A DNA stretch of 17,416 nucleotides from Fidelibacterota bacterium (GTDB lineage: Bacteria; Fidelibacterota; Marinisomatia; Marinisomatales; UBA2128): assembly GCA_046861645.1 (NCBI GenBank), contig JBHHUM010000045.1:1-17416 (forward strand). Direction: 5' to 3'. A model generated the notes under the pieces. It ran no database searches. It saw only the letters and a program-made list of their open reading frames with translations, and was not told the origin of the DNA. Position 1 is the first letter of the stretch, and each line of letters starts with the position of its first letter. Both the position numbers and the translations under genes were made by a program. Shown here in pieces: positions 7,374-12,943 of the stretch.

Positions 7374-7598
7374 ATGGCCGAAAAAGTAAAAACAGTAGGC
7401 GTAAATAAAGAATCCGGATTTCTTTACTACCTCGGTAAAGATGGTGATGTATGGCGTTCTAAAATGGCTCGAGCTGGTAAAGGTGGAGGGAATGCTGAAA
7501 AAGTAGCTTCCGCAGGTGTAAGCAGAGAATCTGGTTACCTCTACTTCATCGACAAGGATGGTGATGTATCTCGTGCCAAGATGGCTCGAGGTCGCTAA
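7374..7598 (+). CDS. Small basic protein built from two ~39-aa repeats; function unknown (possibly nucleic-acid binding)
   Basis: Strong RBS, own promoter and terminator. Residues 2-33 and 41-72 are identical at 21 of 32 positions; 15 K/R versus 9 D/E. Confidence 0.88.
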   Translation: MAEKVKTVGVNKESGFLYYLGKDGDVWRSKMARAGKGGGNAEKVASAGVSRESGYLYFIDKDGDVSRAKMARGR

Positions 7599-7621
7599 AT
7601 ACCGCATCATCGGTTGAACTT

Positions 7622-7650
7622 GAGAGCCCCCTGATGGGGGCTTTCTTGTA
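7622..7650 (+). terminator. Intrinsic terminator after the 74-aa gene
   Basis: Stem GAGAGCCCCC (7622-7631), loop TGAT, GGGGGCTTTC (7636-7645), running into a short T-rich tail. Confidence 0.8.
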
Positions 7651-7764
7651 TCCGGTAAGATTTATTTAACTCTGAAAGTGTATTACTTCATAGATTTGCA
7701 ATAATTCGTAAGCGAAAATAACGGGAAAAAATAAGCCAGAAACGGTATAAAATGGGGGGAAGTG

Positions 7765-8406
7765 ATGTTAAAACGATTTGCTTTTCGTTTTTGGATAATA
7801 GTACCAGGAGTCCTTATGACGCAAGTTGATTACAACAGTCAGATTCAACCTATCTTTAATAATAATTGCATAGTTTGCCATGGAATTTCGGGAGGACTCA
7901 GCCTGGCTTCTTATGAAGATCTAATGACCGGAGGTAGCCATGGTGAAGTGATAATAGCCTTTGATGCTGAAAATAGTATTCTCGCTCAGAAAATTCAGTC
8001 TGATCCTCCCTTTGGTAGCCGCATGCCACAAAACAATCCAACTTATTTTGATGAACATCCAGAGGAATTGCAGCTGATAATTGATTGGATTAATGAAGGA
8101 GCTGCCGAGACGGTATCAATTACTTCCCGTGTCAATCCTCCCAGTAAATTCGCCATAACAGGATCCTTTCCCAATCCGTTTAATGCCGCTACTACCATAA
8201 CCTTTACCGTACCCAGGTTGACGGACCTGGAACTGGAGGTTGTTAATCTTGTAGGACAGCGAGTGGCTATTCTGCTTGAAGGAACGGTAACTCCTGGGTC
8301 ACATCAAGTAGTATGGAAGGCTGACAAAATAAGCAGTGGGTTTTATGTTGCTCGTCTTAACGCAGACGGTAACATGTTCGCCACCAAGCTCCTGTTACTA
8401 AAGTAA
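7765..8406 (+). CDS. Secreted monoheme c-type cytochrome (planctomycete cytochrome C/PSCyt1-like) with a T9SS type A-like C-terminal sorting domain
   Basis: Signal peptide before QVDY; IQPIFNNNCIVCH (CxxCH at 7867-7881), RMP, IIDWINEGA; tail FPNPFN...NLVGQRV...SSGFYVARL...TKLLLLK. Start is GTG 7762 or ATG 7765. Confidence 0.85.
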   Translation: MLKRFAFRFWIIVPGVLMTQVDYNSQIQPIFNNNCIVCHGISGGLSLASYEDLMTGGSHGEVIIAFDAENSILAQKIQSDPPFGSRMPQNNPTYFDEHPEELQLIIDWINEGAAETVSITSRVNPPSKFAITGSFPNPFNAATTITFTVPRLTDLELEVVNLVGQRVAILLEGTVTPGSHQVVWKADKISSGFYVARLNADGNMFATKLLLLK

Positions 8407-8807
8407 TGAGTCGTGGGGGCAGGCTGGCCAGCAGTATCATCATGGGACTACTAGCTGGTTGTTCAGATATGGGTAGCGGTCCCCCTCCTGAAGATCTTAC
8501 TTTTTCTGGCGACATTCAGGTCATCTTTGACCATAACTGTACTACAGATTGCCATGAAGGAGAGAATGCAACCGGTGGTCTTAATCTTTCTTCGAATAAA
8601 AGCTATGAAAATCTTGTTAATGTCCCTTCTAATTATGTGGGTTTATTGCGTGTGGAACCGGGCAATGCTGACAGTTCTTCCCTTTATCTGAAGGTGATCG
8701 GCAATCCCCGAACCGAAGTCAGGATGCCTCTGGAAGGTAATTCTCTTTCTGAGGAACAGATCTTGAAAATAAAAATATGGATCGATGATGGTGCTCAGGA
8801 TAACTAA
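8406..8807 (+). CDS. Lipoprotein monoheme c-type cytochrome (PSCyt1-like) with a CX3CH motif
   Basis: Lipobox LLAG-C; IQVIFDHNCTTDCH (8538-8555), GGLNL, SSLYLKV, RMP, IKIWIDDGA; TAATG overlap with the upstream gene. Confidence 0.82.
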   Translation: MSRGGRLASSIIMGLLAGCSDMGSGPPPEDLTFSGDIQVIFDHNCTTDCHEGENATGGLNLSSNKSYENLVNVPSNYVGLLRVEPGNADSSSLYLKVIGNPRTEVRMPLEGNSLSEEQILKIKIWIDDGAQDN

Positions 8808-9894
8808 AATAATCTACTTTCTATTCATGGGGTTCCTACCAGCACTTCCGATTACCCTCCTGGCGGTTCCACGACTGGCTGTGCAGAATGGAGTCTCCTG
8901 CATAACCTGTCACTTGAATCCAACCGGAGGTGGTCTTCGTAATGAGTACGGTTCTTCCGTGGTTTCGTTAGATGAACTACCCCTTCTGTCACCATCAAAG
9001 CAACCAGCTTTTACAGGTGCTCTTTCTGATCATCTTCGGGTGGGTATGGATTTTCGAATGCAATCCTATGTTCACAGCGAGGTCAAAGACCAATGGGAAA
9101 TCGTTCTTTTCCCAATGCAGTTGGAGCTTTATGGTCACTGGTTAGTTACCAATGGTCTACAGGCTTATGCTGCTGTGGATGCAATAAGGAGCAATTCCGA
9201 AGTCTGGGTAAGTGTGGAAGTAAAAAAACTAAATGGTTACTTCCGAGCCGGTAAAATGATACCCCACTTTGGACTGGCACTTGATGATCATACGACTTTC
9301 GTGAGGGGGGGAAATATCAAGCTGAAAAATGGTCTCAATGCGGAAGGGATGATTTTTACACCTCTACGCTCCTTGGTTAATACCGTTGAGACCGGTATTA
9401 ATTTAGGGAATTTCTTTATCACTGGTAGTATCTCCGACGGCTACGTCTTTAGTGAATCAAAAAAAAGGACTTTAGCTGGGCGAGTGGAGTATTCTGGAAT
9501 GTTTCGAGAGATTACGATGCTGGCGGGTGGTTCGGTGATAGAGGAAGGTAATTTCCTCCTGTTGGGACTCTTTAGTGGTTTTGCCCGAGGATCATTCGCC
9601 TGGATGGGAGAGGTAAACATTGCTGACAATTGGGTAGGAGATGGTTCTTCCATAGCATCTTTCAATGAGTTAAGTTACGGGTTGTTTCCAGGGCTGACCG
9701 TCACAGCCAGATACGATTTTTTCGATGAAAATATCAAATACCTGCAAAATGCTATCAGCCGGATAACGGCTGGTATCGAATTCTTTCCAATACCCTATGT
9801 TGAAATCCGCAGTCAAGTTCGCGTTACCCAAGTATCTTTCGAAAAAAGTAGTAAAAGTCCTGAGTTTATCACTCAGGTTCATCTGTGGTTTTAG
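8785..9894 (+). CDS. Outer-membrane beta-barrel with an N-terminal monoheme domain (Cyc2-like cytochrome-porin architecture)
   Basis: Signal peptide, then AVPRLAVQNGVSCITCHLNPTGGGLRNEYG (CxxCH at 8899-8913). The remainder is alternating amphipathic strands ending ITQVHLWF (terminal-Phe beta-signal). Exact start uncertain. Confidence 0.8.
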   Translation: MMVLRITKIIYFLFMGFLPALPITLLAVPRLAVQNGVSCITCHLNPTGGGLRNEYGSSVVSLDELPLLSPSKQPAFTGALSDHLRVGMDFRMQSYVHSEVKDQWEIVLFPMQLELYGHWLVTNGLQAYAAVDAIRSNSEVWVSVEVKKLNGYFRAGKMIPHFGLALDDHTTFVRGGNIKLKNGLNAEGMIFTPLRSLVNTVETGINLGNFFITGSISDGYVFSESKKRTLAGRVEYSGMFREITMLAGGSVIEEGNFLLLGLFSGFARGSFAWMGEVNIADNWVGDGSSIASFNELSYGLFPGLTVTARYDFFDENIKYLQNAISRITAGIEFFPIPYVEIRSQVRVTQVSFEKSSKSPEFITQVHLWF

Positions 9895-9907
9895 AAAGGA
9901 GGAATAA

Positions 9908-10270
9908 ATGAAGAAAAGTGCCATGGGAATAATAGTAGTACTCTTATTAGGGGGAGTAGTGAAAGCTCAGGATGTAAAAAATGTTCGGGTTCTTCCTTTT
10001 AAGAGTACTCGCGAAATAGTGCCTTACATGAAAGAGATGGCTGGTACCTTGGGTGTGAAGTGCAATTTCTGCCATAATATGAAAGATAAATCACTGGATG
10101 AGATTAAACATAAGCTCATCGCCCGGGAGATGATGCGGATGGTGAACGGTATTAATAAAGATTACATGACACCGCTGAAGGTTGATGCCATCACTTGTTG
10201 GACTTGCCATCGTGGAACTTCTGAACCCCCTCGTAGTGTTGATGACAAGCGGAAACCCCACAAGCATTAA
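9908..10270 (+). CDS. Periplasmic diheme c-type cytochrome (short CytoC_RC/PufC-related family)
   Basis: RBS AGGAGG 9897-9902; signal peptide VKA|Q; KNVRVL, M...LGVKCNFCH (10061-10075), IAREMMRMV..IN, ITCWTCHRG (10196-10210). Confidence 0.88.
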   Translation: MKKSAMGIIVVLLLGGVVKAQDVKNVRVLPFKSTREIVPYMKEMAGTLGVKCNFCHNMKDKSLDEIKHKLIAREMMRMVNGINKDYMTPLKVDAITCWTCHRGTSEPPRSVDDKRKPHKH

Positions 10271-10287
10271 TCAGGTAGGGTTATCTC

Positions 10288-11661
10288 ATGGATATAACAT
10301 CGGTAATAGCTTTTGCTAAAGATCAAAACCAGAGGTTCATAAAGGAACTGGAGGAATTTGTAAAGATTCCGAGCATCTCCAGTAGTTCAGAGCATACAGC
10401 AGACATTCACCGTTGTGCTGATTTTTTAAGGGATCAAATGCACCGTATTGGACTGAAGAGAACGGAAGTCATAGCAACATCGGGGAATCCGATCGTTTAT
10501 GGTGAGTGGCTGGAGGCAGAAGGGAAACCAACAATACTGATATATGGTCATTATGATGTACAGCCAGTTGATCCCCTGGAACTTTGGGTATCACCTCCCT
10601 TTGAACCTCAAATCCGAGCTGGACGCCTTTACGGTCGTGGCACCGTTGATGATAAGGGACAGATTTACATCCACCTGAAAGCTATCGAATCCTGGTTAGC
10701 AGTACACGATCGGTTACCGTTGAATATCAAGTTTATTGCTGAAGGAGAGGAAGAAGTAGGTAGTACGAACCTGGGCGAATTTCTAGCCCACAATTACCAA
10801 TTGTTGAAAACGGATATAACGGTTATTTCGGATACACCCATGTTCAAGAAAGGGATGCCGTCCATCTGTTATGGTCTTCGGGGACTGGCCTATTATCAGC
10901 TGAATATACGGGGTTCCAAACAGGACCTGCACTCTGGTTCCTTTGGAGGTGTAGTGAAGAATCCTATTCAAGCTCTGGCTGAAATTATCGCCCAGTTTAA
11001 AGATGATAATGGGAGAATCACTATTCCCGGTTTTTATGATGATGTTATTCCTATAGGTCCTGAGGAGCGAGAAAACCTTTCTAAGCTACCCTTTGATGAA
11101 GAAGTTTTTCGCCGGGAAGTAGGTGCTCCAGCTCTCTCCGGTGAGGATGGCTACTCTATACTGGAGAACCTCTGGGTTCGACCCACACTGGATGTATGTG
11201 GAATTTGGGGTGGATTTCAAGAAGAAGGAGCCAAGACTATTATCCCCGCTGAGGCTCATGCTAAAGTAAGCATGCGGTTGGTACCCAACCAAACTCCAGA
11301 ACAAATTGGTAAACTGTTTGAAAAGTATATTCAGGAGATTGCCCCGCCAGAGGTGGAAGTGGTAGTGGAAAGTTTACATGGTGGTGATGGTTTCATTACG
11401 GATGTGACACATCCTGCTTTCAATGCCGTGAAGATTGCCCTTAGAAAAGGATTTGGGAAAGAGACTGTATTCATTCGCGAAGGGGGTTCAATTCCTTTTG
11501 TTCAAACGATGTCCGAAACTCTCCAAGTACCGTGCCTGCTGATCGGTTTTGGCTTACCAGATGAAAATGCTCATGCTCCCAACGAATGGCTCGATTTGGA
11601 AAATTATCACTTAGGTATATTAAGCAGTGTCTATCTTTATGATGAACTGGCTCGGAACTAA
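10288..11661 (+). CDS. M20 family dipeptidase (CNDP/Dug1-like, ArgE/DapE superfamily)
   Basis: YGHYDVQP, GRGTVDDKG, EGEEEVGS, DLHSG, GGSIP, AHAPNE. Confidence 0.93.
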   Translation: MDITSVIAFAKDQNQRFIKELEEFVKIPSISSSSEHTADIHRCADFLRDQMHRIGLKRTEVIATSGNPIVYGEWLEAEGKPTILIYGHYDVQPVDPLELWVSPPFEPQIRAGRLYGRGTVDDKGQIYIHLKAIESWLAVHDRLPLNIKFIAEGEEEVGSTNLGEFLAHNYQLLKTDITVISDTPMFKKGMPSICYGLRGLAYYQLNIRGSKQDLHSGSFGGVVKNPIQALAEIIAQFKDDNGRITIPGFYDDVIPIGPEERENLSKLPFDEEVFRREVGAPALSGEDGYSILENLWVRPTLDVCGIWGGFQEEGAKTIIPAEAHAKVSMRLVPNQTPEQIGKLFEKYIQEIAPPEVEVVVESLHGGDGFITDVTHPAFNAVKIALRKGFGKETVFIREGGSIPFVQTMSETLQVPCLLIGFGLPDENAHAPNEWLDLENYHLGILSSVYLYDELARN

Positions 11662-12943
11662 ACTCTCATTTCAAATTCTTTACCTGGGTGTTCTTATTCT
11701 TCCTCTGATGGCGCAGGAAGAAAATCAGAAATCTGAACAGATCTCAGATATCATCATTAACGGAAATAAAATCACTCAAGAATACATCATCCGTCGAGAG
11801 ATTTTTCACCCTGTCAATGCTTTATATGATTCAGTTTTGGCTGCTGAAGATCGGAACAGGATTGACAACTTGGGAATTTTCTCTGAAGTAAAAGTTATGC
11901 TTCAACCTAATGGTGATGGAACACAGAGTCTTGCTTTCGAGGTTGTAGAATCCTGGAGGATTTTTCCATTACCCATTATTATCTATCAGGAAGAAACTGG
12001 ATGGTCTTATGGTGGTATGGTAGTTATCAAGAATTTCAGGGGTAGGAATGAAAACCTGTCAGCGTTCGCCTCCTTTGGGGATAGAATGTTAGGTGGTATT
12101 GGTTTTGACGATCCCTGGATTTTAGGTGATCATGTATCATTTCGAGGGCATATATTTTTTCAAGTCTCTGAACATTTGTTTCTTCCTCATGAGTATCAAG
12201 AGCTTGATTTCGAAACAACAGTTGGTCGCTATTTCGGTTATCAATGGAAGATATGGGGAACTGTTAGTGTTGAGAAGAGATGGATTGATTACTTTGCTGA
12301 CGACAAACAGGATATTGAACAACACTATTTCCAAACAAAGTTTCAACTTATTTATGATACTCGAGATTTATACATAGATCCTTCAAGGGGAATCTACGTT
12401 GATACCCAACTTCGCCCTGAGATAGGACTGGATGAAGACTCTCCTAATTTTATTGAAATGGACATCACGGCCAGTTCTTTCAGGTTGCTCATCCCCGGTA
12501 AAAGAAAATGGGTAGTCGGTGCATCTGTTACTCTGCACCGTTACTTTGGAAATAGTTTACCTTACAAGATATTTTCTGTAGGAGGTGTTGAATCTGTCCG
12601 TGGTTGGGAGGTACTTGATTCTACCCGTTATATGAGTGAATCTTTTCGTTCAGGATTGAACTATTATTATATGTCGGCTGAACTTCGTCAGACTTTGATT
12701 CCCAAACGGTTGACTCGTTTTGGGACAGAGTTTGGATTAATCTTGGCAGAGTTCTTTGATTTAGGAGCAGCTGATAATACTTTCTCTGGTATGATCAAGA
12801 AAGAGCCAATATTCGGTGCTGGGGCGGGGATTCGTTTCTATGTTCCAGGAAATATTTTGTTTAGATTAGATTATGCGGTCGGTTATTATCAACAATCGTG
12901 GAGTAAACCACAGTGGCACATATCGGTAGGTCACAAATTCTGA
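11639..12943 (+). CDS. Omp85 (BamA/TamA) superfamily outer-membrane protein with a single POTRA domain
   Basis: Signal peptide LMA|Q; POTRA (IIINGNKITQEYIIRREI...RIDNLGIFSEV); NFRGRNE, YDTRD...PSRG, GGVESVRGW lid motif, GAGIRF, terminal GHKF. ATG 11639/11642 preferred over GTG 11627. Confidence 0.88.
   Translation: MMNWLGTKLSFQILYLGVLILPLMAQEENQKSEQISDIIINGNKITQEYIIRREIFHPVNALYDSVLAAEDRNRIDNLGIFSEVKVMLQPNGDGTQSLAFEVVESWRIFPLPIIIYQEETGWSYGGMVVIKNFRGRNENLSAFASFGDRMLGGIGFDDPWILGDHVSFRGHIFFQVSEHLFLPHEYQELDFETTVGRYFGYQWKIWGTVSVEKRWIDYFADDKQDIEQHYFQTKFQLIYDTRDLYIDPSRGIYVDTQLRPEIGLDEDSPNFIEMDITASSFRLLIPGKRKWVVGASVTLHRYFGNSLPYKIFSVGGVESVRGWEVLDSTRYMSESFRSGLNYYYMSAELRQTLIPKRLTRFGTEFGLILAEFFDLGAADNTFSGMIKKEPIFGAGAGIRFYVPGNILFRLDYAVGYYQQSWSKPQWHISVGHKF

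What the first reader, a model, noticed from the sequence alone, without database searches (positions are those of the whole stretch)
7765..10270. Four-gene trans-envelope cytochrome cassette: candidate undescribed extracellular electron transfer system
Seen: four contiguous genes (1-bp overlap, up to 23-bp overlap, 13-bp gap), each with heme c motifs and a different targeting signal: T9SS-like tail, lipobox, beta-barrel with terminal Phe, and cleavable signal peptide (diheme). That is five heme motifs in total. Established: Cyc2-type fused cytochrome-porins and porin-cytochrome conduits move electrons across outer membranes. Inference: a low-heme chain from the surface through the outer membrane to the periplasm, unlike the multiheme MtrCAB/PioAB/Pcc systems. 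Direction and substrate are unknown, and no heme maturation genes lie in this window.
Basis: partly seen in the sequence, partly recalled or inferred. Interest (0 to 1): 0.88.

Follow-up and report, generated by a model that had tools for sequence, protein, structure and literature searches.

The report
Cyc2-like haem-porin cassette in Marinimicrobia
Four neighbouring genes in a likely Marinimicrobia genome encode small haem-motif proteins addressed to the cell surface, the outer membrane and the periplasm, built around a distant cousin of the iron-oxidising pore protein Cyc2; they likely form a short electron path across the outer membrane, which would point to unrecognised iron (or other metal) oxidation in a very abundant ocean group.

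Summary
In detail: four co-oriented, tightly packed genes (7762-10270) carry five haem c motifs and four different addresses. Gene C is a 16-strand porin with one N-terminal CXXCH. It belongs to a large unnamed family (3618 cluster representatives) that is a distant whole-length homologue of Cyc2 (hhalign 97.9%). It fails both published Cyc2 signature motifs (0 of 255 members). Genes A (T9SS tail) and B (lipoprotein, CX3CH) are PSCyt1 domains whose only solved relative is the iron oxidase FoxE. Gene D is a PufC-like dihaem cytochrome (NF033196).

The B-C-D core is near-universal in Marinimicrobia-type loci (D 30 of 30, B-type 28 of 29). The T9SS-tailed A occurs in 10 loci. About a third of sampled genomes of the phylum carry C (125 of 401). 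The genome has CcmABCEF, PorU and two haem-copper oxidases.

Best reading: a Cyc2-type outer-membrane electron-uptake module with added FoxE-like cytochromes. Direction and substrate are inferred only. No complex prediction or RNA evidence could be obtained. It is a new variant of a known kind. I found no paper describing it. Earlier findings of this scan report the porin plus FoxE-like lipoprotein pair in other phyla.

The parts
7762..8406 (+). Gene A: 214-aa monohaem cytochrome c (CIVCH, nt 7867-7881). It has an N-terminal signal peptide, a PSCyt1/FoxE-like domain and a T9SS type A C-terminal sorting domain (about nt 8167-8394). Predicted to be displayed on the cell surface.
   Evidence: PF07635 27.6 bits (cut-off 22); PF18962 27.7 (27); TIGR04183 30.6 (23). 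Ten-sequence orthologue alignment A6 keeps C36, C39, H40, M88-P89, the PNPFN motif and the final K. The A6 profile hits FoxE 5mab at E 1.3e-10. The model shows a helical domain plus a 7-strand sandwich, at low confidence.
8406..8807 (+). Gene B: 133-aa lipoprotein (lipobox LAGC, nt 8451-8462) with one haem motif CTTDCH (CX3CH, nt 8538-8555). PSCyt1/FoxE-like domain.
   Evidence: PF07635 21.4 bits, just under the cut-off of 22. Alignment A4 has invariant C19, C45, C49, H50, M107, P108. Motif spacing varies between CXXCH, CX3CH and CX4CH in relatives, with Cys and His always kept. The A4 profile hits both haem domains of FoxE 5mab at E 1.5e-16.
8785..9894 (+). Gene C: 369-aa fused monohaem cytochrome-porin (CITCH, nt 8899-8913), predicted 16-strand barrel ending HLWF. 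A distant Cyc2 homologue.
   Evidence: No Pfam or NCBIfam family. Family of 3618 cluster representatives. Invariant C39, C42, H43, P46, G48, D168, R174, H366. 16 strands, pLDDT 70.9. Nearest solved folds are 16-strand porins including OprP and OprO. hhalign to Cyc2-motif proteins gives 97.9%, E 3.8e-13 over 331 columns.
9908..10270 (+). Gene D: 120-aa secreted dihaem cytochrome c (CNFCH nt 10061-10075, CWTCH nt 10196-10210), PufC-like. Predicted to be periplasmic.
   Evidence: NF033196 c_type_nonphoto 79.1 bits (cut-off 70); PF02276 52.3 (22.4). The A5 profile hits reaction-centre cytochrome subunits, best 5yq7_C at 6e-33. Invariant M41, C52, C55, H56, C97, C100, H101; M75 and M78 nearly invariant.
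7628..7650 (+). Terminator-like hairpin after the upstream small gene. It is a possible upstream boundary of the transcription unit.
   Evidence: Consensus scan only: 6 terminator-like sites found against 3.1 expected in shuffles. Weak.

Best explanation
The four genes encode c-type haem-motif proteins that likely assemble into a Cyc2-type electron path across the outer membrane, predicted to carry electrons inward from extracellular Fe(II) (or another reduced metal) to the periplasm.

Shown:
- C is a 16-strand porin fused to one N-terminal CXXCH, homologous over its whole length to proteins carrying the published Cyc2 motif.
- A and B are PSCyt1 domains related to the Fe(II) oxidoreductase FoxE. 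A carries a T9SS sorting tail and B a lipobox.
- D is a PufC-like dihaem cytochrome with a signal peptide.
- B-C-D adjacency is conserved across Marinimicrobia-type loci.
- The genome has Ccm haem maturation, a T9SS sortase and two A-type haem-copper oxidase operons.

Inferred:
- The haem of C sits in or under the barrel, as modelled for Cyc2.
- Surface-anchored A and lipid-anchored B would extend the chain on the outer side and/or bridge C to D.
- D would shuttle electrons to the oxidases or Rieske/cytochrome b complexes.
- The inward direction rests on three things: the conserved Met beside each CXXCH (His/Met ligation usually means high potential), the Fe(II)-oxidising relatives Cyc2 and FoxE, and the PufC kinship of D.
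For: - Architecture and targeting.
- Cyc2 kinship: the A1 profile finds the N-termini of 400-530-aa ORFs bearing A[IV]P[AS]FARQTGxxCxxCH in 110 of 401 genomes of another phylum. hhalign of A1 against 16 such proteins gives 97.9%, E 3.8e-13 over 331 columns. The spacing is the same as Cyc2: AxPx[FL]A, then three residues, then three more before CXXCH.
- Fold: 16 strands. OprP 2o4v and OprO 4rjw/4rjx, the templates used for Cyc2 (Keffer 2021 passages), are among the top hits.
- FoxE kinship of B and A. FoxE 'extracts electrons from Fe(II)' and has His/Met haems (PMC10654088 passages).
- D is PufC-like.
- Conservation in loci L003-L035: D adjacent in 30 of 30 assessable, B-type adjacent in 28 of 29, A-type within 2.5 kb in 9 of 26 (plus L012).
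- A second C paralogue in the same genome again follows a PSCyt1-like gene and a dihaem cytochrome. A third PSCyt1-like lipoprotein sits by a 13-haem cytochrome and a barrel-like protein.
- Genome context: CcmABCEF, two COX1/2/3 operons and two Rieske/cytochrome b clusters; PorU at 685 bits.
- Family-level pattern: the three families with no oxidase match (0/15, 0/19, 0/3) also have no C (0/33, 0/30, 0/9).
Against: - No experiment or expression data exist, and no RNA holder is listed for this DNA.
- C fails both published Cyc2 signature motifs: PXFAR[QK][TY] in 0 of 255 family members and PXL in 0 of 255. So the function cannot simply be transferred.
It is not a set of proven iron oxidases.
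- The haem region of C (residues 24-81) and the conserved DDHT loop are modelled at low confidence. Haem position and axial ligand are therefore unknown.
- The B motif is CX3CH, and its Pfam score is just under the cut-off.
- Many Ignavibacteria-type loci have C with no cytochrome neighbour: only 16 of 42 have any. The partners are thus not obligatory for the family.
- Oxidase and C do not track each other strictly. Family f3 has oxidase in 15 of 16 genomes but C in 0 of 37. Some genomes with C, such as G501 at 97% completeness, show no oxidase match.
- The same genome holds large multihaem cytochromes (32, 17 and 8 haems), so outward electron transfer is also within its repertoire.
Confidence: 0.5

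Rival explanations
1. The same conduit runs outward. It would discharge respiratory electrons to extracellular acceptors such as Fe(III), Mn(IV) oxides or humics, like the Mtr and Pcc systems but with few haems.
For: The architecture itself is direction-neutral. The genome is rich in multihaem cytochromes typical of outward transfer (32-, 17-, 13- and 8-haem proteins). Cyc2-like genes have been reported in MAGs of Fe(III)-reducing taxa including Ignavibacteriaceae (He et al. 2019, PMC6344600 passages).
Against: All partner domains keep a conserved Met consistent with His/Met ligation. By general knowledge this is typical of high-potential haems and is poorly suited to reducing Fe(III) minerals. 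The characterised relatives Cyc2 and FoxE are oxidases of Fe(II). The C family is absent from the three oxidase-less families sampled.
Confidence: 0.17
2. The module is a redox sensor rather than an energy-conserving pathway. It would report the external redox state or Fe(II) level to periplasmic haem sensors and regulators.
For: In three relatives (L007, L009, L014) the gene right after D is a 733-738-aa trihaem periplasmic sensor with HAMP and an adenylate/guanylate cyclase domain. The paralogous cassette on contig C78 follows a PAS histidine kinase and two response regulators.
Against: The window has no signalling gene next to the cassette; the downstream genes are an M20 dipeptidase and an Omp85 protein. 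Only 3 of the 30 Marinimicrobia-type loci with downstream DNA show the cyclase. Regulators beside respiratory operons are common and do not make the operon a sensor.
Confidence: 0.1
3. The module serves iron acquisition or detoxification. The haem-porin and surface cytochromes would change the redox state of iron at the cell surface for uptake, or to prevent damage, without feeding the respiratory chain.
For: The barrel is related to substrate-specific porins (OprP, OprO and BBP2-type). Small monohaem proteins could act as ferrireductases or ferroxidases. The neighbouring genes are not respiratory.
Against: No iron transporter, siderophore or Fur-type gene lies next to it in the window or was seen among the haem-motif neighbours listed. 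A dedicated periplasmic dihaem carrier, conserved in 30 of 30 loci, fits onward electron transfer better.
Confidence: 0.08
4. The four genes are merely neighbours: independent periplasmic or outer-membrane cytochromes with no shared pathway.
For: No interaction evidence exists. A is missing from most loci, and many C genes in Ignavibacteria stand alone.
Against: The genes overlap by 1 and 23 bases and are separated by 13 bases. B-C-D adjacency is kept across a clade whose C proteins are only 32-69% identical. The same pairing of a PSCyt1 lipoprotein with C appears in the paralogue.
Confidence: 0.05

Closest known systems
Cyc2 fused cytochrome-porin (Acidithiobacillus ferrooxidans Cyc2; Mariprofundus ferrooxydans Cyc2PV-1; Keffer et al. 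2021, PMC8406198, passages read)
   Same: Signal peptide, a single N-terminal CXXCH and a 16-strand porin resembling OprO/OprP. An AxPx[F/L]A stretch sits at the same distance before the haem motif. Profile-profile homology covers 331 columns.
   Different: It lacks the R-[QK]-[TY] part of the defining motif and the PXL motif (0 of 255 family members). Instead it carries CxxCHxNPTGGGxRN and an invariant GLxLDDHTxFxRGG loop. It is shorter, at 369 aa. In a quick tree the family forms its own well-supported group apart from Cyc2-motif proteins. It is found in Fidelibacterota, Ignavibacteriota, Bacteroidota and Kryptoniota.
FoxE, dihaem Fe(II) oxidoreductase of Rhodobacter ferrooxidans SW2 (PDB 5mab/5mvo)
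   Same: The haem domains of A and B are homologous to both FoxE haem domains (E 1.3e-10 and 1.5e-16), with the CXXCH-type motif and the Met-Pro ligand motif.
   Different: A and B have one haem each, not two. A has a T9SS tail and B a lipid anchor, whereas FoxE is a soluble periplasmic protein (recalled). B has CX3CH. No foxY or foxZ genes were looked for. The organism is not a phototroph as far as I checked; reaction-centre genes were not searched.
PufC reaction-centre tetrahaem cytochrome and its non-photosynthetic relatives (NCBIfam NF033196)
   Same: D aligns to the first two haem segments of PufC (about residues 53-144 of 1dxr_C) and passes the NF033196 cut-off.
   Different: Two haems rather than four. 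It is below the PufC equivalog cut-off (59.8 vs 150). It is encoded after a haem-porin, not with reaction-centre genes.
Cyc2-Cyc1-oxidase pathway of iron oxidisers (rus operon type)
   Same: Works alike in outline: an outer-membrane monohaem porin, then a periplasmic dihaem cytochrome, then a haem-copper oxidase. All three kinds of component are present in this genome.
   Different: The periplasmic carrier is PufC-like, not a c4-type Cyc1. Two extra FoxE-like cytochromes are addressed to the outer membrane and the surface. The oxidase genes lie on other contigs.
Porin-cytochrome complexes MtrCAB, PioAB/MtoAB, Pcc
   Same: A trans-outer-membrane arrangement of a barrel plus cytochromes, with a surface-exposed cytochrome as in MtrC.
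   Different: Those use 26-strand barrels threaded by deca- or multihaem proteins (Keffer 2021 passage). Here there is a 16-strand barrel with a fused single haem, and five haems in all. The surface protein would be anchored by the T9SS rather than secreted by type II secretion (the latter recalled).

Membership tests
Cyc2 (as delimited by Keffer et al. 2021 / FeGenie) | Signal peptide and a single N-terminal CXXCH | tested here: met
   CITCH at residues 39-43 after a hydrophobic N-terminus. 243 of 255 family members have a single CXXCH.
Cyc2 (as delimited by Keffer et al. 2021 / FeGenie) | 16-strand beta-barrel porin resembling OprO/OprP | tested here: met
   The AF2 model has 16 strands, pLDDT 70.9. 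Foldseek gives 2o4v TMq 0.56 and 4rjw/4rjx 0.57. This is a prediction, not a structure.
Cyc2 (as delimited by Keffer et al. 2021 / FeGenie) | Upstream motif [AX]PXFAR[Q/K][T/Y], used as an inclusion filter | tested here: not met
   The window has AVPRLAVQN. The strict motif occurs in 0 of 255 family members. The relaxed PX[FLYWM][AS] occurs in 222 of 255.
Cyc2 (as delimited by Keffer et al. 2021 / FeGenie) | PXL motif about 4 residues after CXXCH | tested here: not met
   0 of 255 members have it. 240 of 255 have x[NDST]PxG instead.
Cyc2 (as delimited by Keffer et al. 2021 / FeGenie) | Length of at least 365 aa | tested here: met
   369 aa; borderline.
Cyc2 (as delimited by Keffer et al. 2021 / FeGenie) | Score above the cut-off of a FeGenie Cyc2 cluster HMM | not testable with these tools
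   The FeGenie HMMs are not held. Pfam and NCBIfam have no model that hits even canonical Cyc2-motif proteins.
Cyc2 (as delimited by Keffer et al. 2021 / FeGenie) | Fe(II) oxidase activity | not testable with these tools
   Needs biochemistry.
PSCyt1 (Pfam PF07635) | Score at or above the gathering cut-off of 22 bits | tested here: met
   A scores 27.6 bits. B scores 21.4 bits, just under, but B and A match one profile built from the neighbours (96.0 and 102.9 bits).
FoxE iron oxidoreductase | Dihaem protein encoded in a foxEYZ operon | tested here: not met
   A and B have one haem motif each, and their neighbours are C and D. FoxY and FoxZ were not searched for in the genome. Homology of the haem domain only.
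T9SS type A cargo | C-terminal sorting domain above the curated cut-off, with T9SS machinery in the genome | tested here: met
   TIGR04183 30.6 (cut-off 23); PF18962 27.7 (27). PorU NF033707 684.8 (420) on contig C51, and about 50 further CTD matches. SprA and PorKLMN were not searched.
NF033196 c_type_nonphoto (PufC-like non-photosynthetic cytochrome) | Score at or above 70 bits | tested here: met
   D scores 79.1 bits.
PufC reaction-centre cytochrome (NF040706) | Score at or above 150 bits; four haems | tested here: not met
   59.8 bits; two haem motifs.
MtrAB/PioAB/Pcc porin-cytochrome complexes | Large barrel (about 20-26 strands) enclosing a separate multihaem cytochrome | tested here: not met
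   16 strands with a fused single haem. MtrC-type Pfam hits on D are far below the cut-off (17 vs 30).

The most novel reading that the evidence does not exclude
A large share of Marinimicrobia (SAR406) and related FCB bacteria carry a minimal five-haem wire across the outer membrane. It consists of a T9SS-anchored FoxE-like surface cytochrome, a FoxE-like lipoprotein, a Cyc2-like haem-porin and a PufC-like carrier. With it they harvest electrons from dissolved or particulate Fe(II) or Mn(II) in vent plumes and low-oxygen water to supplement heterotrophy. This would be the first respiratory cytochrome displayed by type IX secretion, and an iron-oxidation route that current marker-gene surveys, filtered on the Cyc2 motif, do not count.
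Probability: 0.25. Interest if true: 0.85.

Novelty: new variant of a known kind. Interest (0 to 1): 0.62.

Why it matters
Cyc2 is the main marker used to map microbial iron oxidation. Its published definition filters on a motif that this family lacks in all 255 members checked. The family has 3618 cluster representatives and is present in 125 of 401 sampled genomes of this phylum, so it may be invisible to such surveys.

If the family does the same chemistry, a very abundant dark-ocean lineage and many Ignavibacteria would gain a lithotrophic electron source. Iron-cycle budgets in plumes and oxygen-minimum zones would then need revisiting.

The cassette also joins three separate iron- and photosynthesis-linked haem modules (Cyc2-like, FoxE-like, PufC-like) in one operon. 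It suggests that type IX secretion can place a cytochrome on the cell surface. Cultured carriers exist (Rosettibacter primus, locus L072), so the question can be tested.

Tried and rejected
- Complex prediction (C with B and two haems) could not be run. The queue was full, the job was not sent on, and the queue was still full. No verdict exists.
- Expression: no RNA holder is listed for 7600-10400. The only holders are four DNA runs of one study, marked as the possible source.
- Promoter scans gave nothing. There were 3 sigma-70-like sites against 5.7 expected. The Bacteroidetes-type TAnnTTTG motif (recalled) occurs once upstream of A at 7691-7698, but 9 times in the window against 12.4 expected.
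- Pfam and NCBIfam on C gave no family. The first 90 residues at E up to 10 gave only noise. The PDB sequence profile of C found nothing below E 0.065.
- phmmer of A alone against the PDB found nothing. Only the orthologue profile reached FoxE.
- The model of A is poor (pLDDT 65.3, pTM 0.42). Its fold search gave only weak generic beta-sandwich hits. The RgpB T9SS C-terminal domain ranked third at E 9.6e-4, which is not used as evidence.
The narrower A2 was used instead.
- Considered and rejected: an Mtr/Pcc-type complex (wrong barrel size and haem count), and a photosynthetic reaction-centre subunit for D (below the cut-off, two haems).
- Oxidase co-distribution is only a family-level pattern with exceptions. 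It is confounded by kinship and carries little weight.
- Literature searches found no paper attributing a Cyc2-like gene to Marinimicrobia, and none on a T9SS-sorted cytochrome. One search found 4 papers holding both terms, of which I read passages in the 3 listed. Searches were also run. The library holds only open PMC papers and bioRxiv. Supplementary gene tables and the figshare Cyc2 tree were not seen and could list such hits.
Full report
**What is there**

The window is contig C180 of a 2.51-Mb, 94%-complete genome. Its closest protein relatives and syntenic loci are named Candidatus Marinimicrobia, Neomarinimicrobiota or Fidelibacterota.

Four co-oriented ORFs occupy 7762-10270:
- **A** (214 aa): CIVCH.
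- **B** (133 aa): lipobox LAGC and CTTDCH.
- **C** (369 aa): CITCH, C-terminal HLWF.
- **D** (120 aa): CNFCH and CWTCH.

A and B overlap by 1 base, B and C by 23 bases, and C and D are 13 bases apart. Only 62 of 8926 six-frame ORFs in the genome contain CXXCH, so four in a row is not chance. A terminator-like hairpin follows the upstream small gene. D is followed after 18 bases by an M20 dipeptidase gene, with no terminator-like site between them.

**Identity of the parts**

A passes Pfam PSCyt1 (27.6 vs 22) and both T9SS sorting-domain models: PF18962 at 27.7 vs 27, and TIGR04183 at 30.6 vs 23. B scores 21.4 on PSCyt1, just under the cut-off. D passes NF033196, the family of non-photosynthetic PufC-like cytochromes (79.1 vs 70), and PF02276. 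C matches nothing in Pfam or NCBIfam.

Profiles built from orthologues sharpen this picture.
- The B profile (A4) hits both haem domains of FoxE, the Fe(II) oxidoreductase of Rhodobacter ferrooxidans (5mab, E 1.5e-16). It then hits the C-terminal haem domain of hydrazine synthase alpha.
- The A profile (A6) also hits FoxE (E 1.3e-10).
- The D profile (A5) hits reaction-centre cytochrome subunits, best at 6e-33.
- Conserved Met residues accompany every haem motif: M107-P108 in B, M88-P89 in A, and M41 and M75/M78 in D.
- In B-type proteins the Cys-Cys spacing varies (CXXCH, CX3CH, CX4CH), while both Cys and the His are always kept. This argues that the odd motif is functional.

**Gene C is a distant Cyc2 homologue**

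The C family has invariant C39, C42, H43, P46, G48, D168, R174 and H366. Its consensus is ALPRFAxxxGxxCxxCHVNPTGGGLRN.

Keffer et al. 2021 (passages read) define Cyc2 by these features:
- a signal peptide;
- one CXXCH;
- a 16-strand porin modelled on OprO/OprP;
- the motif AXPXFAR[Q/K][T/Y] before the haem site;
- PXL after the haem site;
- a length of at least 365 aa.

A profile of the C family picked out the N-termini of 400-530-aa ORFs in 110 of 401 genomes of another phylum. Of the 29 loci returned, 27 held an ORF with A[IV]P[AS]F[AS]RQTGxxCxxCH-type N-termini.

A cultured carrier, Rosettibacter primus, has both kinds of gene. One is a C-family gene. The other is a 406-aa protein with AIPSFARKY, three residues, CQTCH and PKL. 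The window's own genome also has a canonical-motif protein on contig C165.

hhalign of the C family against 16 such Cyc2-motif proteins gives 97.9% probability, E 3.8e-13, over 331 columns covering both cytochrome and barrel.

The AF2 model of C has 16 strands (pLDDT 70.9). The haem region (24-81) and the loop 159-197 that holds the invariant DDHT motif are at low confidence. The nearest solved folds are 16-strand porins including OprP, OprO and OprB.

Yet the strict Cyc2 motif is absent from all 255 family members checked, and so is PXL. 240 of them carry x[NDST]PxG instead. In a quick tree the 78 C-family rows form one group (support 99) apart from the 17 Cyc2-motif rows and two haem-less porins. 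Inside it there is a Fidelibacterota clade (34 rows, 97) and an Ignavibacteriota/Bacteroidota/Kryptoniota clade (42 rows, 88) (quick method, with long branches flagged).

So C works like, and descends with, Cyc2. It is not a member of Cyc2 as currently delimited.

They are not proven oxidases.

**Size and spread of the family**

- The profile finds 3618 cluster representatives at E up to 1e-3, 2141 at 1e-10 and 625 at 1e-30 among 1.84 billion.
- In species genomes, 247 loci encode a relative.
- In the window's phylum, 125 of 401 sampled genomes have it at E up to 1e-10. That is 72 of 190 high-quality genomes and 45 of 114 genera, patchy by family.

**Conservation of the neighbourhood**

Among the 33 best loci (L003-L035, almost all titled Marinimicrobia-type), the counts are as follows:
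- D is adjacent in 30 of the 30 with at least 450 bases downstream.
- A B-type PSCyt1 gene without a T9SS tail is adjacent in 28 of the 29 with at least 500 bases upstream.
- An A-type gene (PSCyt1 plus T9SS tail) lies within 2.5 kb upstream in 9 of the 26 with enough DNA, plus L012. That makes ten loci in all.

Among the other 47 loci (mostly Ignavibacteriota):
- D is adjacent in 1 of 46.
- A PSCyt1 gene is adjacent in 4 of 46.
- A different T9SS-tailed monohaem protein lies upstream in 12 of 43.
- Only 16 of 42 have any cytochrome neighbour.

That Ignavibacteria surface protein matches Pfam Temptin_C (2e-15). It shares the CxxCHxNPxGGGxRN motif with the N-terminus of C, and the C profile detects it.

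The window's genome has a paralogous set on contig C78: an EB_dh protein, a dihaem cytochrome, a PSCyt1-like protein and a C paralogue. It also has a third PSCyt1-like lipoprotein beside a 13-haem cytochrome and a barrel-like protein at the end of contig C167.

The stable unit in this clade is therefore B-C-D. The surface cytochrome is an add-on, seen in several subclades.

**Genome context**

- CcmE, CcmF, an ABC ATPase placed as CcmA, CcmB and CcmC lie together on contig C113, and there is no ResB.
- PorU scores 685 bits, and about 50 other ORFs carry sorting tails.
- There are two COX1/2/3 operons, two Rieske/cytochrome b clusters and several multihaem cytochromes.

**Mechanism and direction**

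The shown facts fit a Cyc2-type path: external donor, then the haem in or under the 16-strand barrel, then a periplasmic carrier (D), then oxidase.

A (outside, attached by the T9SS) and B (lipid-anchored, face unknown) are inferred to lengthen or bridge the chain.

The inward direction is inferred from three things:
- likely His/Met ligation, which by general knowledge gives high-potential haems;
- the Fe(II)-oxidising relatives: Cyc2PV-1 at 208 mV (Keffer abstract) and FoxE, which extracts electrons from Fe(II) (PMC10654088 passages);
- the PufC kinship of D.

At family level, the three oxidase-less families sampled (0/15, 0/19, 0/3) have no C (0/33, 0/30, 0/9). However, f3 has oxidase (15/16) without C (0/37), and some genomes with C show no oxidase match. 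This is weak and confounded by kinship.

The DNA is held by four runs labelled hydrothermal vent metagenome. These are probably its source, so they give no independent habitat evidence.

**Rivals**

Four rival readings are set out in Rival explanations, with the evidence for and against each: outward electron transfer, redox sensing, iron acquisition and mere adjacency. None is excluded.

**What is known and what is new**

- Cyc2-like genes have been noted in Ignavibacteriaceae and Bacteroidetes MAGs (He et al. 2019, passages).
- Among the papers holding both 'Cyc2' and 'Marinimicrobia' (4 found; passages read in the 3 listed), none attributes such a gene to Marinimicrobia.
- Term searches inside two broad Cyc2 surveys found no mention of these phyla in the main text.
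- Searches for type IX secretion together with cytochromes and extracellular electron transfer found nothing on the point. The Melioribacter respiration paper does not mention a porin or secretion.
- Supplements and the figshare Cyc2 tree were not seen.
- Earlier findings of this scan (read after my own analysis) describe the same porin plus FoxE-like lipoprotein pairing in Zixibacteria, Ignavibacteria-type and other genomes. They agree with this reading.
- What this window adds is the four-gene form with a T9SS-tailed FoxE-like cytochrome and a conserved PufC-like carrier in Marinimicrobia.

**Verdict**

This is a real, conserved, unannotated variant of the Cyc2 theme. I put about 0.7 on it being an outer-membrane electron conduit of some direction, and 0.5 on the specific inward, metal-oxidising reading. 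No interaction, expression or biochemical evidence was obtainable here.

Noticed in passing
window 7374-7598 (+): A 74-aa ORF made of two internal repeats (ESG[FY]LY..KDGDV.R.KMAR), with a strong ribosome-binding site and a terminator-like hairpin after it. It has no Pfam family. It is highly conserved (E 1e-35 to 1e-43) just upstream of the cytochrome cassette in 15 Marinimicrobia-type loci. Atlas neighbours are Fidelibacterota hypotheticals only.
   Followed up: partly
G000:C78:28293-31971 (L002, L119): A paralogous cassette: an EB_dh-domain protein (380 aa), a dihaem cytochrome c (316 aa), a PSCyt1-like protein with CX3CH (162 aa) and a C paralogue (361 aa). It is preceded by a PAS histidine kinase and two response regulators.
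   Followed up: partly
G000:C165:11560-12858 (-) (L121): A 432-aa protein with a near-canonical Cyc2 N-terminus (IPSFSRKY, three residues, CSTCH, then PKL). It lies in a region with cupredoxin-like proteins, a Rieske/cytochrome b pair and an 8-haem cytochrome. The genome therefore has both a Cyc2-type gene and two C-family genes.
   Followed up: partly
G000:C142:11065-16144 (-) (L117): Three adjacent multihaem cytochromes with 8, 32 and 17 CXXCH motifs, with MtrC/MtrF-like and c7-type Pfam hits. This is a candidate separate extracellular electron transfer system.
   Followed up: no
G000:C167:48658-51436 (L118): A 420-aa barrel-like protein, a 13-haem cytochrome and a PSCyt1-like lipoprotein (142 aa) in a row at the contig end, after a molybdopterin oxidoreductase/NrfD cluster. 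PSCyt1 lipoproteins thus recur beside outer-membrane redox genes in this genome.
   Followed up: partly
G000:C67:7068-10724: A 1218-aa protein with an N-terminal PSCyt1 haem domain very like that of A and a T9SS-type C-terminus. It lies upstream of a Rieske/cytochrome b/8-haem cluster and two oxidase operons.
   Followed up: partly
L007:1747-3963, L009:3955-6156, L014:7573-9789: In three relatives the gene after D is a trihaem periplasmic sensor (three Mcp40H-20-type sensor domains) with HAMP and an adenylate/guanylate cyclase domain. In L009 and L014 a 364-aa dihaem protein precedes the B-type gene.
   Followed up: partly
L072:5325-5996, L044:5141-5809 and ten more Ignavibacteria-type loci: The T9SS-tailed monohaem protein upstream of the porin matches Pfam Temptin_C. 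It carries the same CxxCHxNPxGGGxRN motif as the porin's own N-terminus, as if the surface protein and the porin plug share one haem module.
   Followed up: partly
L031 and L034: Contigs titled Winogradskyella sp. and Gammaproteobacteria carry Marinimicrobia-type cassettes. In the tree, the C protein of L031 sits 0.06 changes per column from that of L006. These are likely mis-binned contigs rather than transfers.
   Followed up: no
window 11627-12943 (+): A single-POTRA Omp85-family gene two genes downstream of D. An Omp85 homologue lies downstream of the cassette in 18 of 81 loci searched and the M20 dipeptidase in 10. Whether it helps insert the haem-porin is unknown.
   Followed up: no
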